A stretch of 64,000 nt of DNA from Escherichia coli (GTDB lineage Bacteria; Pseudomonadota; Gammaproteobacteria; Enterobacterales; Enterobacteriaceae). A program made the translations under genes and the position numbers. The stretch is from the NCBI RefSeq assembly GCF_003018235.1, contig NZ_CP027437.1; one strand, 5' to 3'. Position 1 is the first letter of the stretch; the number at the start of each line of letters is the position of its first letter. The notes beneath the pieces were generated by a model. The model saw only the letters and a list, made by a program, of their open reading frames with translations, searched no databases and had not been told where the DNA came from. This document shows, in pieces, positions 1,721 through 7,724 of this stretch.

Positions 1721-1891
1721 TCACCTCTCCTTCGAGCGCTACTGGTTTGCTCGTCTGCCACCACGTTGCATATGCGTTTGCGTCCTGCGATACGGATGCT
1801 TTAGAGCAATTTTTTGTTAATGATTTGTAATTGGCTTGTCAATACTACCCTATTGTTTGCCGTCATGAAAGATGCGCGTTATTAGGCTATA

Positions 1892-2039
1892 ATGCGGCAA
1901 TTCATAATCTCTGAAAATACCATGCAAAAAACTTCTTTTAGACCAAAGACAGTATTTTCCCGACATTCAAATAAAGTATTAAATATCAATTATTTACACC
2001 AGATTTTAAGCAATAAAAAAACCACCAGAGATAACTAAC
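1892..2039 (+). pseudogene. displaced original 5' end of rluE fused to insert sequence
   Basis: ATG at 1892 encodes MRQFIISENTMQKTSFR, which I recall as the K-12 RluE N-terminus, then diverges and stops after 49 codons. Confidence 0.4.
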
Positions 2040-2180
2040 AGGGTGCTATTTGGTCAAAATTTGACATTACTCGATTCAGCGACTATCTCACTTTGAGCAC
2101 TATTGGGAAAATTATCAAAAGTCATGGTTGAAGCGACAAGCAACGAGTAAATTATGGCATCCCCCCTTTTTGAGGTTCAC

Positions 2181-2267
2181 ATGAAACGCTTTGCACTGAT
2201 AGCTGTGAAACTCGTTGCCTTTACTGGTTCTGCATCTGCTGCAACCGAAGAAATCAACTTCAAGTAA
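2181..2267 (+). CDS. 28-aa signal-peptide-like ORF
   Basis: MKRFALIAVKLVAFTGSASAATEEINFK preceded by a GAGG ribosome-binding site; within the rluE insert. Confidence 0.2.
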   Translation: MKRFALIAVKLVAFTGSASAATEEINFK

Positions 2268-2300
2268 CAGAAACACTATATAACAATGGAGTGTTGACAA

Positions 2301-2588
2301 ATGGATACTACCGAAGAACGCAATGGAACATATTTCTACAGAGGACACCCGAACCTGTCCAAAATAGAACTACTCAACGTCATATTCCTTGAAGAATTCT
2401 GTAAGGAATTGGGGATTGATTCGGTATCAGGTGCAGCAATCTTATCTGGTCAACCGTGGCTGGGTACAAGAGCGAAGCCGCAAGGGGCAACCCTGGGAAC
2501 AAGTGTTGTCTCAAAGTATGCGCGTATACTGATGAGAGATGCACGCATGCCTTTTGGTATTTGTGGGTGTAAGGATGCAGAAATCTAA
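2301..2588 (+). CDS. hypothetical protein
   Basis: 95 aa ORF in the rluE insert; no family recognised. Confidence 0.3.
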   Translation: MDTTEERNGTYFYRGHPNLSKIELLNVIFLEEFCKELGIDSVSGAAILSGQPWLGTRAKPQGATLGTSVVSKYARILMRDARMPFGICGCKDAEI

Positions 2589-2736
2589 TAAGCTTGCTGC
2601 AATTATCGCTCGTTGGGTCCCGTGGATTGGTTGGGCTTCACTGTCGATGAGTCTTTACAGGGTTTCGACTCGTACCCAGGAAAAATACAATCTGATTGCC
2701 AAACCTCAAGACCGTATTAAGTGGACTTCCTTCTAA
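2539..2736 (+). CDS. small putative membrane protein
   Basis: Hydrophobic stretch LAAIIARWVPWIGWASLSMSLY; likely start is the internal ATG at 2575. Confidence 0.25.
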   Translation: MHACLLVFVGVRMQKSNKLAAIIARWVPWIGWASLSMSLYRVSTRTQEKYNLIAKPQDRIKWTSF

Positions 2737-3071
2737 TGGCGACAACAATCACAGACGAAGTTTTAGCACTGTTCCGTGATGAGATTCCAGGTTATCAGGA
2801 TGACCACGGGAAGGAAATTCCGTTAGAACTGGACTCTGATTTGTTCGACTATCCACGAGATGATTTAGAGGACGCTATACGGAAATACAAAGAGAGGTTT
2901 GGGATTAACCTGGATAATCTGGACTGGTCTTTGTACCTTCCATGGGAGTCTGCACCATTGCTTCAACGATGGTTCAAGCTCAAGCGGGAAGAGGTAGAAA
3001 CAACACGTTTACCGTTAACTGTACGGATGTTTGCAGAATCAGCAGAAGCGGGAAAATGGCTGTATCAGTAG
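2721..3071 (+). CDS. hypothetical acidic protein
   Basis: 116 aa acidic ORF in the rluE insert; no confident family assignment. Confidence 0.4.
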   Translation: MDFLLMATTITDEVLALFRDEIPGYQDDHGKEIPLELDSDLFDYPRDDLEDAIRKYKERFGINLDNLDWSLYLPWESAPLLQRWFKLKREEVETTRLPLTVRMFAESAEAGKWLYQ

Positions 3072-3391
3072 AATAAAAAAGAAGGCTGCGATGCCCCTCT
3101 TATTACTGCTGATGATAGTAGTGGTAAAGCATCATCCTAAACTTGAACAGTGAAGTGCTGTCACCCATCAGTAATACAGAAACACTATTTTTCATACCAG
3201 TATTTATTCAATTCATCAATGTAAAATGTGTTCATTGGGCCATATTTATCACCATGCAGCCACACAACCGCTGCTCACTAACCCAGGTATTGATGAAACC
3301 GCGCTGAAGAGCCTGAACCCTGAACCTCTAACGAGTACCTTAAAAGTCCAATGCAATCCGACACTGTGCTACCCTCTGCGTATAGCTCTAT

Positions 3392-4042
3392 TTGGAATTT
3401 ACCATGAAATACTTTAGCGATTCTAAATCTTCTTTTAGAAAAAAACAGGTTAGTCGACTAAACTCGCAACACTCCACTAAGCGTAAACCTGAAAATCAGC
3501 CCACGCGCGTGATCCTGTTCAATAAACCCTACGATGTTCTTCCGCAGTTCACCGATGAAGCCGGACGCAAAACATTAAAAGAATTCATCCCGGTTCAGGG
3601 CGTTTATGCAGCAGGTCGTCTTGACCGCGATAGCGAAGGGTTACTGGTGCTGACCAATAACGGCGCGTTGCAGGCGCGTTTAACCCAGCCGGGTAAACGC
3701 ACCGGAAAAATCTATTATGTGCAGGTGGAAGGTATTCCCACACAAGACGCACTTGAAGCCTTGCGCAATGGCGTAACCTTAAATGATGGCCCTACCCTGC
3801 CCGCAGGCGTAGAGCTGGTTGACGAACCCGCGTGGTTATGGCCGCGGAATCCACCAATTCGTGAACGCAAAAGTATTCCCACCAGCTGGCTGAAGATCAC
3901 CTTATATGAAGGACGTAATCGCCAGGTGCGCCGCATGACCGCCCATGTTGGTTTCCCCACGCTGCGACTGATTCGCTATGCGATGGGTGATTACTCTTTG
4001 GATAATCTTGCCAACGGCGAATGGCGAGAAGCGACAGATTAA
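3392..4042 (+). CDS. rluE: 23S rRNA pseudouridine synthase E with substituted N-terminus
   Basis: Translation from [23 protein letters not shown] onward matches RluE; track start 3392 is TTG, first ATG is 3404. Confidence 0.85.
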
Positions 4043-4051
4043 GGACGCAAA

Positions 4052-5673
<1,622 letters not shown>

Positions 5674-6350: not shown

Positions 6351-7724
<1,374 letters not shown>

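What the first reader, a model, noticed from the sequence alone, without database searches (positions are those of the whole stretch)
1892..3439. Small insertion in the 5' end of rluE with a replacement N-terminus
An ORF at 1892 encodes MRQFIISENTMQKTSFR, which I recall as the K-12 RluE N-terminus, then diverges. About 1.5 kb downstream the full rluE body resumes with a different N-terminus. An 11-bp direct repeat cttcttttaga marks both junctions, and the right junction carries a diverged copy of the original start region. This is the signature of an integrative element that targets a gene end and restores it, yet no recombinase is inside. It could be a remnant or a cassette mobilised in trans.
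Basis: partly seen in the sequence, partly recalled or inferred. Interest (0 to 1): 0.55.

Follow-up and report, generated by a model that had tools for sequence, protein, structure and literature searches.

The report
Foreign gene islet inside rluE start
About 7% of E. coli strains carry an old, immobile 1.5-kb piece of foreign DNA in the start of the rluE gene; it brings a probable secretion-system toxin/antidote gene pair and a substitute gene start, and is a strain-specific islet rather than an active mobile element.

Summary
K-12-type rluE (promoter plus 17 codons) runs unchanged to base 1942. Foreign, low-GC DNA follows, and rluE resumes at 3404 with a new N-terminus. The 11-bp repeat CTTCTTTTAGA sits at both junctions (1932-1942, 3429-3439) and nowhere else in the 64 kb.

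About 93% of 5,426 complete E. coli genomes, plus Klebsiella and Citrobacter, have the uninterrupted arrangement. 373 E. coli genomes and Escherichia sp. E1V33 carry the insert, always at this site with identical junctions.

The foreign DNA runs past the repeat to about 3480, so 39 bp of native rluE were replaced, not just split.

The cargo is STM2901/DUF8209 plus DUF1493. In about 30 of 50 other Enterobacterales loci this pair lies directly after a type VI secretion Hcp gene, so it is probably an Hcp-carried toxin with its immunity protein. Here hcp is absent. In this window a private 14-bp deletion kills the toxin gene.

I found no recombinase, inverted repeats, attP junction, second insertion site or donor. 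Two genomes carry deletion scars between the repeats.

Verdict: an ancient, non-autonomous islet, spread vertically and by homologous recombination. How it was first acquired is unresolved. Interest is modest.

The parts
1865..1893 (+). Native rluE sigma-70 promoter-like site (ATGAAA, 17 nt spacer, TATAAT). The -10 hexamer overlaps the ATG annotated in K-12.
   Evidence: 10 of 12 matches. The region is nearly identical in Klebsiella and Citrobacter.
1892..2038 (+). Stranded native rluE 5' end: 17 codons, identical to K-12 through 1942, with the Met11 ATG at 1922. It is fused to insert sequence and gives a 48-aa ORF.
1932..1942 (+). Left copy of the 11-bp junction repeat CTTCTTTTAGA.
1943..2300 (.). 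Left non-coding arm of the insert (GC 37%). It contains a hypervariable stretch at 1959-2003 and a small signal-peptide-like ORF at 2154-2267. It has no homologue outside this Escherichia locus.
2267..2279 (+). Left copy of the 13-bp exact repeat ACAGAAACACTAT, which brackets the two genes.
2301..2736 (+). STM2901-family (DUF8209, PF26636) gene. In this window it is a pseudogene, frameshifted by a 14-bp deletion between 2562 and 2563 (ORFs 2301-2588 and 2539-2736). The intact orthologue is 149 aa, pI 10.
   Evidence: (NF045926, 156 bits against a cut-off of 110 for the intact orthologue).
2736..3071 (+). DUF1493 gene, intact (111 aa, pI 4.5). Its start overlaps the stop of the upstream gene (TAATG). 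Predicted fold is ACP-like.
   Evidence: (PF07377, E = 1e-29).
3072..3403 (.). Right non-coding arm of the insert (GC 42%). It has a hairpin at 3082-3097 and no homologue elsewhere.
3176..3188 (+). Right copy of the 13-bp repeat ACAGAAACACTAT.
3404..3480 (+). Heterologous rluE 5' end supplied by the insert: a new ATG, 5 extra codons, the repeat, and a 39-bp 'patch' at 3442-3480 that is 67% identical to K-12.
3429..3439 (+). Right copy of the 11-bp junction repeat.
3404..4042 (+). Functional-looking chimeric rluE (212 aa). From 3481 on it is about 99% identical to K-12.

Best explanation
This is a fixed, non-autonomous genomic islet. In an ancestral Escherichia a foreign DNA segment (window 1943 to about 3480, GC 42%) replaced 39 bp just inside the rluE coding region.

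The segment carries:
- an hcp-less copy of the Enterobacterales hcp-STM2901(DUF8209)-DUF1493 module. This is most likely a small basic toxin delivered by the type VI secretion system as Hcp cargo, with its acidic immunity protein;
- two non-coding arms of unknown origin;
- a heterologous rluE 5' end that restarts rluE in frame.

The cassette points the same way as rluE and lies just downstream of the intact native rluE promoter. No consensus promoter was found inside the insert. The pair and rluE' are therefore probably transcribed from that promoter (inferred).

Since acquisition the islet has been inherited vertically and moved between Escherichia lineages by ordinary homologous recombination of its flanks. 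The strongly diverged patch acts as a homology cliff, which fixes the right boundary at about 3481 in every carrier.

The 11-bp repeats are the (micro)homology at the junction and occasionally cause deletion of the islet.

In this window the toxin gene is dead (a private 14-bp deletion) while the immunity gene is intact.

The original acquisition was probably homology-anchored in the conserved rluE body or leader, from an unknown enterobacterial donor. That step is inferred, not shown.
For: Derived state:
- 93% of E. coli genomes, plus Klebsiella and Citrobacter, have the uninterrupted site with K-12-like tails.

One site and old:
- Junctions are identical in 373 E. coli genomes, E1V33 and 8 metagenome contigs.
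- Carrier haplotypes differ by up to about 2-3% within the insert.

Spread by homologous recombination:
- E1V33 is about 2% diverged inside the insert and 6-10% diverged in the flanks, switching at 3481-3484. K-12 switches at the same point.
- TR01 (O157:H7) carries a tract of at least 3 kb of a carrier haplotype.

Cargo identity:
- NF045926 and PF07377 matches.
- An Hcp gene (TIGR03344) lies immediately upstream in about 30 of 50 loci, and DUF1493 immediately downstream.
- The pair is 16.8 kDa, pI 10 and 13.2 kDa, pI 4.5, with overlapping stop and start.
- The gene is full length at 99% identity or more in 372 of 374 carriers.

No mobility machinery:
-.

Expression:
- The only + strand promoter-like site is the native one, and no + strand terminator was found.

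Foreign composition:
-.
Against: - No donor sequence for the arms or for the B-type rluE 5' end was found anywhere. The acquisition route is therefore conjecture.
- An 11-bp junction repeat that lies exactly at the homologous position of both rluE 5' copies is also what a site-specific or short-homology Campbell-type integration would leave.
- A second, 13-bp repeat brackets the two genes (p about 0.02 by chance). This hints at a repeat-generating insertion process that this explanation does not account for.
- The toxin/immunity role rests only on gene neighbourhood and charge. There was no structural match for STM2901 (model pLDDT 66). DUF1493 resembles ACP only weakly.
- The hairpin at 3082-3097 might stop read-through into rluE'.
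Confidence: 0.6

Rival explanations
1. It is a non-autonomous site-specific cassette (CIME-like). The 1.5-kb unit is bounded by attL and attR that share the core CTTCTTTTAGA, which lies in the ultra-conserved rluE leader. A recombinase encoded elsewhere integrates and excises it, and the unit carries its own rluE start to repair the target.
For: - Exact 11-bp repeats lie at both junctions.
- The gene is restarted in frame by insert sequence.
- The core lies in a stretch conserved across genera, which would make a good att site.
- Two independent empty 'scar' alleles exist. Their AA/CC difference directly after the core could come from a heteroduplex overlap region.
- The bare hcp-STM2901-DUF1493 module moves between genera with sharp boundaries.
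Against: - Only one site and one junction pair are seen across all data.
- No attP junction was found.
- The foreign sequence continues 40 bp beyond the core. Conservative exchange at the core cannot produce that in a K-12-type target.
- Modules in other genera have unrelated flanks and no enriched flanking repeats.
- Carrier diversity indicates a single old event.
Confidence: 0.15
2. It is the stump of a larger integrative element (a prophage, satellite, ICE or T6SS island). That element once integrated into the rluE 5' end using an attP that mimics rluE, and later lost its integrase and most of its cargo by internal deletion.
For: - Replacement of a gene end by an element-borne diverged copy is the hallmark of such elements. 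The neighbouring icd 3' end is used this way, with integrases next to icd in several strains.
- The B-type 5' copy is more diverged from K-12 (69% identity) than the Citrobacter copy is (76%), as expected for an old element-borne mimic.
- The arms have no chromosomal homologue.
- The nested 13-bp repeat suggests more than one event.
Against: - No larger version exists at this site in 5,426 E. coli genomes.
- The arm sequences have no match in phage or viral collections.
- The displaced native fragment lacks the 39 bp that should have been kept if crossover was at the inner end of the homology.
Confidence: 0.15
3. The arrangement is ancestral in Escherichia, and K-12-like strains lost the islet.
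For: Repeat-mediated loss does occur.
Against: - Loss leaves the B-type patch, as in HS-02 and TR01. K-12-type strains, Klebsiella and Citrobacter instead have the A-type tail and an uninterrupted gene.
- The insert has a foreign GC content.
Confidence: 0.02

Closest known systems
Orphan Hcp-effector-immunity islets of Enterobacterales T6SS. A characterised example is the variable genomic context of Ssp6-Sip6-like pairs, some of which lie next to 'orphan' Hcp genes (PMC6889166).
   Same: - A small (<20 kDa) protein followed by a small partner gene, placed immediately after a stand-alone hcp.
- The modules are scattered among unrelated housekeeping genes in many genera.
- hcp-less copies exist.
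   Different: - No experimental evidence exists for this family; the searched library holds no paper mentioning DUF8209 and nothing functional on DUF1493 or STM2901.
- The partner is a soluble, acidic, ACP-fold protein, not a two-helix membrane protein like Sip6.
- Sequence relatedness to Ssp6 was not tested.
- The copy here lacks hcp and, in this window, has a dead toxin gene.
Prophage e14 / phage 21 integration into the icd 3' end, where the phage supplies a substitute gene end (own knowledge: Hill et al. 1989; Campbell 1992).
   Same: - A gene end is displaced and replaced by a diverged, insert-borne copy, so the gene stays functional.
- The displaced fragment remains at the other junction.
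- It happens at the neighbouring gene.
   Different: - Here the 5' end, with promoter context, is affected.
- There is no integrase or excisionase.
- The insert is only 1.5 kb.
- The displaced fragment is shorter than the replaced region.
- No free or alternative form is known.
CIMEs, cis-mobilisable elements bounded by att sites but lacking recombination genes (own knowledge: Pavlovic et al. 2004).
   Same: It has no recombinase and is bounded by direct repeats inside a target gene.
   Different: No cognate ICE or integrase is known for this site, and there is no evidence of mobilisation.
Homology-facilitated illegitimate recombination (own knowledge: de Vries and Wackernagel 2002).
   Same: One junction grades into homologous sequence (the rluE body). 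The other is an abrupt join at a short identity (11 bp).
   Different: The donor is unknown. The 11-bp identity is at the long end of reported microhomologies, and it lies at the homologous position of the duplicated gene start.

Membership tests
Site-specific integrative element (prophage / ICE / IME) | Encodes its own integrase or recombinase | tested here: not met
   The only ORFs are STM2901, DUF1493 and small unsupported ones. No recombinase family was hit.
Site-specific integrative element (prophage / ICE / IME) | Identical att core at both junctions | tested here: met
   An 11-bp exact repeat lies at 1932-1942 and 3429-3439 and is unique in the window.
Site-specific integrative element (prophage / ICE / IME) | An attP or circular form exists, or there are independent integrations at the same attB in unrelated hosts | tested here: not met
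   The joined-ends 25-mer is absent from viral contigs. All carriers share one event-like haplotype family. Plasmid hits are mislabelled chromosome pieces.
Site-specific integrative element (prophage / ICE / IME) | Sequence beyond the core on the chromosome side is native | tested here: not met
   Thirteen of the 39 bases right of the core are foreign.
CIME / cassette mobilised in trans | Precise excision that regenerates an empty site | tested here: inconclusive
   Two empty 'scar' alleles exist, HS-02 and TR01. Their crossover points differ, and each sits in an imported carrier-type haplotype. Repeat-mediated deletion explains them equally well.
IS / MITE / transposon | Terminal inverted repeats and a target-site duplication | tested here: not met
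   No inverted repeats lie at the ends. The 11-bp repeat is part of a longer homologous gene-start copy.
STM2901 family (NF045926 / PF26636 DUF8209) | Profile match above the curated cut-off | tested here: met
   The intact orthologue scores 156 bits against a cut-off of 110. The window copy is the same gene apart from a 14-bp deletion.
DUF1493 (PF07377) | Pfam match over the full length | tested here: met
   E = 1.3e-29, residues 4-110.
T6SS Hcp-linked effector-immunity pair | Genetic linkage to hcp or other T6SS genes | tested here: met
   Met at family level: Hcp lies immediately upstream in about 30 of 50 loci, confirmed as TssD in one. Not met in the window itself: there is no hcp and no hcp remnant.
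T6SS Hcp-linked effector-immunity pair | T6SS-dependent secretion and toxicity, neutralised by the partner protein | not testable with these tools
   Indirect evidence only: size below 20 kDa, a basic/acidic pair, and coupled genes.
Acyl carrier protein | Conserved phosphopantetheine-attachment serine (DSL motif) | tested here: not met
   The fold resembles ACP (Foldseek probability up to 0.95, TM about 0.5-0.68). However, the Ser in 'DSDL' is not conserved across 21 homologues.

The most novel reading that the evidence does not exclude
The hcp-STM2901-DUF1493 modules, including this hcp-less copy in rluE, could be a class of recombinase-less mobile cassettes. They would insert by short-identity (11-13 bp) recombination catalysed in trans, here using a core in the ultra-conserved rluE leader and bringing a replacement gene start.

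Three observations would be footprints of that process:
- the nested 13-bp repeat around the two genes;
- the two scar alleles;
- the 95%-identical bare module shared by different genera.
Probability: 0.12. Interest if true: 0.7.

Novelty: new member of a known kind. Interest (0 to 1): 0.33.

Why it matters
- It documents a clean natural case in which a horizontally acquired cassette sits inside a housekeeping gene's 5' end without killing the gene. A foreign start replaces the native one, and the cassette probably uses the host promoter.
- It flags an uncharacterised family that is widespread in Enterobacterales and strongly linked to Hcp (DUF8209/STM2901 plus DUF1493). This is a candidate T6SS toxin-immunity pair that could be tested directly.
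- It gives a simple presence/absence and scar marker for tracking recombination around icd in E. coli.
- It does not reveal a new mobility mechanism on present evidence.

Tried and rejected
- **Pre-insertion allele.** I built the empty site (K-12 left side + core + window right side). It exists in only 2 of 5,426 genomes. Both sit in carrier-type haplotypes, and TR01 keeps the insert's first two bases, 'CC'. They are therefore deletion products, not ancestors. The same 31-mer is absent from the metagenome collection.
- **Donor search.** Searching the N-terminal peptide found only E. coli fragments. The insert arms gave nothing against 60+ fetched loci by blastn or tblastx. Two viral-contig scans were empty. 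The metagenome scan found only the same E. coli locus.
- **hcp remnant in the insert.** None found.
- **Homology of the left arm to the native rluE tail.** Not significant.
- **Flanking direct repeats as a general feature of these modules.** Not enriched.
- **Defence-system and RNA-family searches.** PADLOC and Rfam gave nothing.
- **Structure of STM2901.** The model has low confidence and no meaningful PDB match.
- **'Effector decays, immunity kept'.** I first thought the toxin gene was repeatedly inactivated. This is rejected as a general pattern: 372 of 374 carriers keep a full-length gene at 99% identity or more. Only the window (14-bp deletion) and IAI39 and M25631H (IS3 insertions) are disrupted.
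- **E1V33 as the original host of the patch.** Unlikely. Its flanks differ from E. coli by about 6%, whereas the patch differs by 33%.
Full report
**Setting.** The window starts iraM (44-367), then icd on the minus strand (470-1720), then rluE, nudJ, mnmA and hflD on the plus strand. This is the E. coli icd neighbourhood in reverse orientation. No prophage sits at the icd 3' end.

**Observation.** A K-12-derived genome and the window are base-for-base identical from the icd start through the rluE promoter and the first 17 annotated rluE codons, up to base 1942. From 1943 they are unrelated. rluE resumes at ATG 3404 as a 212-aa protein that matches the RluE equivalog over its whole body. CTTCTTTTAGA occurs at 1932-1942 and 3429-3439 and nowhere else in 64 kb. 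An 11-mer repeat somewhere in 1.6 kb is not unusual by itself (26% of shuffles). Its significance is that it coincides with the two junctions.

**Distribution and polarity.**
- Of 5,426 complete E. coli genomes, 373 contain the whole insert. The remainder show a 404-bp empty site.
- Carriers include IAI39, CE10 and ST648 strains. These are phylogroup F by my own knowledge.
- Klebsiella pneumoniae and Citrobacter freundii have an uninterrupted icd-rluE arrangement. Their leader is almost identical (GGCTATAATGCGGCAATT...CTGAAAATACCATGCAAAAAACTTCTTTTAGAAA) and their tails are K-12-like.
- The insert is therefore derived, not ancestral.
- The only other organism with it is Escherichia sp. E1V33, a separate species whose flanks are about 5.5% from every E. 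coli. Its junctions are identical.
- All eight metagenome contigs containing an insert-specific 34-mer are the same locus.

**True extent of the foreign DNA.**
- Right of the second repeat, the window differs from K-12 at 13 of 39 positions (3442-3480). After that, divergence falls to about 1%.
- E1V33 shares this 'patch' with one difference, and switches to its own diverged sequence at 3484.
- The heterologous segment is thus 1943 to about 3480 in both species. It replaced 39 bp of native coding sequence.
- The patch is 69% identical to K-12. That is less than the Citrobacter tail (76%) and about the same as the Klebsiella tail (67%). It therefore comes from a distant source or evolved freely.
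- Left of the repeat, the new start GAATTTACCATGAAA resembles the native GAAAATACCATGCAA around Met11, followed by a 15-nt in-frame insertion (weak on its own).
- The common right boundary is best explained as a homology cliff. Recombination between carrier and non-carrier alleles cannot resolve inside a stretch that is 33% diverged.

**Cargo.**
- PGAP annotates two genes in carriers: an STM2901-family protein (149 aa) and a DUF1493 protein (111 aa), with overlapping stop and start.
- I confirmed NF045926 (156 bits against a cut-off of 110), PF26636 and PF07377.
- In the window the first gene has a 14-bp deletion between 2562 and 2563, which splits it into two ORFs.
- This lesion is private to the window. 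372 of 374 carrier genomes have a full-length gene at 99% identity or more, and two are hit by IS3.

**What the pair is.**
- A scan of one genome per species found 50 loci in Enterobacter, Klebsiella, Citrobacter, Erwinia, Pantoea, Hafnia, Rouxiella and others.
- In about 30 of them a 160-aa Hcp gene lies 10-17 bp upstream, and DUF1493 lies immediately downstream. One of these Hcp genes was checked as T6SS tube protein TssD.
- The closest non-Escherichia relatives (88-92% protein identity) also have the Hcp gene.
- The three-gene module sits among unrelated genes (fimbrial, cytochrome bd, MFS transporters), and between genera the homology stops sharply at the module ends. One pair is 95% identical over 1.36 kb with unrelated flanks.
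- The first protein is 16.8 kDa with pI 10. The second is 13.2 kDa with pI 4.5.
- The DUF1493 model is confident (pLDDT 84) and weakly resembles acyl carrier proteins, but the carrier serine is not conserved.
- The STM2901 model is poor and matches nothing.
- The searched library holds no paper mentioning DUF8209 and nothing functional on DUF1493 or STM2901.
- By analogy with small Hcp-cargo effectors and with the genomic behaviour described for Ssp6-like pairs (PMC6889166), I infer a T6SS toxin-immunity pair. This is inference from neighbourhood, with confidence about 0.6.

**How the locus probably works now.** The native promoter-like site (1865-1893) is intact and is the only plus-strand promoter-like match. 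No plus-strand terminator was predicted; there is only a hairpin at 3082-3097. The cassette has the same orientation as rluE. In other genera the pair is driven from hcp, which is missing here. I therefore infer that the rluE promoter transcribes a short stranded ORF, the two cassette genes, rluE' and nudJ.

**Mobility.**
- There is no recombinase, no inverted repeats, no defence-system or RNA-family hit, no attP-type junction in viral contigs, and no second site.
- The arms (1943-2300 and 3082-3403) match nothing outside this locus.
- Two genomes have an empty site that retains the patch.
- TR01, an O157:H7 strain, differs from a typical O157:H7 across at least 3 kb. Over that tract it equals the PapRG/GDSC carrier haplotype, minus the insert. 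It keeps 'CC', the first two insert bases, after the repeat.
- HS-02 has a CE10/window-like haplotype with a clean deletion.
- These are deletion products with different crossover points. They are more easily explained by recombination between the short imperfect repeats (20 nt at 85% identity) than by a fixed site-specific exchange, although the latter is not excluded.
- Carrier haplotypes differ by up to 2-3%, so the event is old.

**Origin.** This is unresolved. The abrupt left join at an 11-bp identity and the right join that grades into conserved rluE sequence fit a homology-anchored acquisition from another enterobacterium. They also fit the stump of an element that once carried an rluE-mimicking attP. 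No donor was found with any available search.

**Verdict.** This is a real, derived, lineage-restricted islet: an hcp-less putative T6SS toxin-immunity cassette that replaced the start of rluE and supplied a new one. It is not an active integrative element on present evidence. It is a new member of a known kind, of modest interest. The most interesting loose ends are the uncharacterised Hcp-linked family and the way bare modules move between genomes.

Noticed in passing
window 2267-2279 and 3176-3188: A 13-bp exact direct repeat, ACAGAAACACTAT, brackets the two cassette genes. It has only two copies in 64 kb, and only 2% of shuffles of the region give a repeat this long. It may mark a nested, earlier insertion of the gene pair into the 'outer' arms.
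   Followed up: partly
window 1959-2003: There are nine variable sites in 45 bp among eight carrier haplotypes, in a mosaic pattern. The rest of the insert shows about 0.3% diversity among E. coli carriers. The stretch lies inside the stranded rluE-5' fusion ORF. A gene-conversion patch or a mutational hotspot are possible causes; neither was established.
   Followed up: partly
window 1888-1924; L077, L078: The -10 hexamer TATAAT overlaps the rluE start codon annotated in K-12. The leader is nearly invariant in Klebsiella and Citrobacter. PGAP starts Citrobacter RluE at MQKTSFR, and the foreign start aligns to that Met. The annotated K-12 start (MRQFIISENT) is probably 10 codons too long.
   Followed up: partly
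L031 7432-8796 vs L033/L034 (K. michiganensis): A 1.36-kb hcp-STM2901-DUF1493 module is 95% identical between an unclassified Enterobacterales bacterium and Klebsiella michiganensis, with unrelated flanks. This indicates recent inter-genus transfer of the bare three-gene module without any recombinase gene. About 75-100 bp upstream of hcp is conserved.
   Followed up: partly
window 2004-2025 vs L032-L034, L037 about 7400-7435: The segment TTTAAGCAATAAAAAAACCAC in the left arm matches the left boundary region of hcp modules in other genera (p about 0.00-0.04). Nearby motifs (CAGAGATAACT, TTATTTAC..ACC) are also shared, but in a different order. This may be a scrambled remnant of the module's upstream region.
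   Followed up: partly
L004 (E. coli O157:H7 TR01) and L003 (HS-02), icd-rluE-nudJ: Both strains carry imported tracts of carrier-type haplotype around icd-rluE in non-carrier backgrounds, with the islet deleted. In TR01 the tract is at least 3 kb; its NudJ protein accession is also the one found in carriers PapRG-06-5 and GDSC2227PM.
   Followed up: yes
L069 (IAI39) 3233-4446; L070 4322-5499; Ecol_881; M25631H: IS3 and IS1 elements have inserted into or beside the islet in several carriers: within STM2901 in IAI39 and M25631H, and between DUF1493 and rluE' in Z0117EC0005.
   Followed up: partly
plasmid collection records CP088590.1, CP125156.1, CP054248.1 and others: Many PLSDB 'plasmids' that contain rluE and icd are evidently chromosome pieces or whole chromosomes labelled as plasmids (for example a 5.37-Mb Klebsiella record). 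CP088590.1 encodes an RluE' identical to the window's.
   Followed up: no
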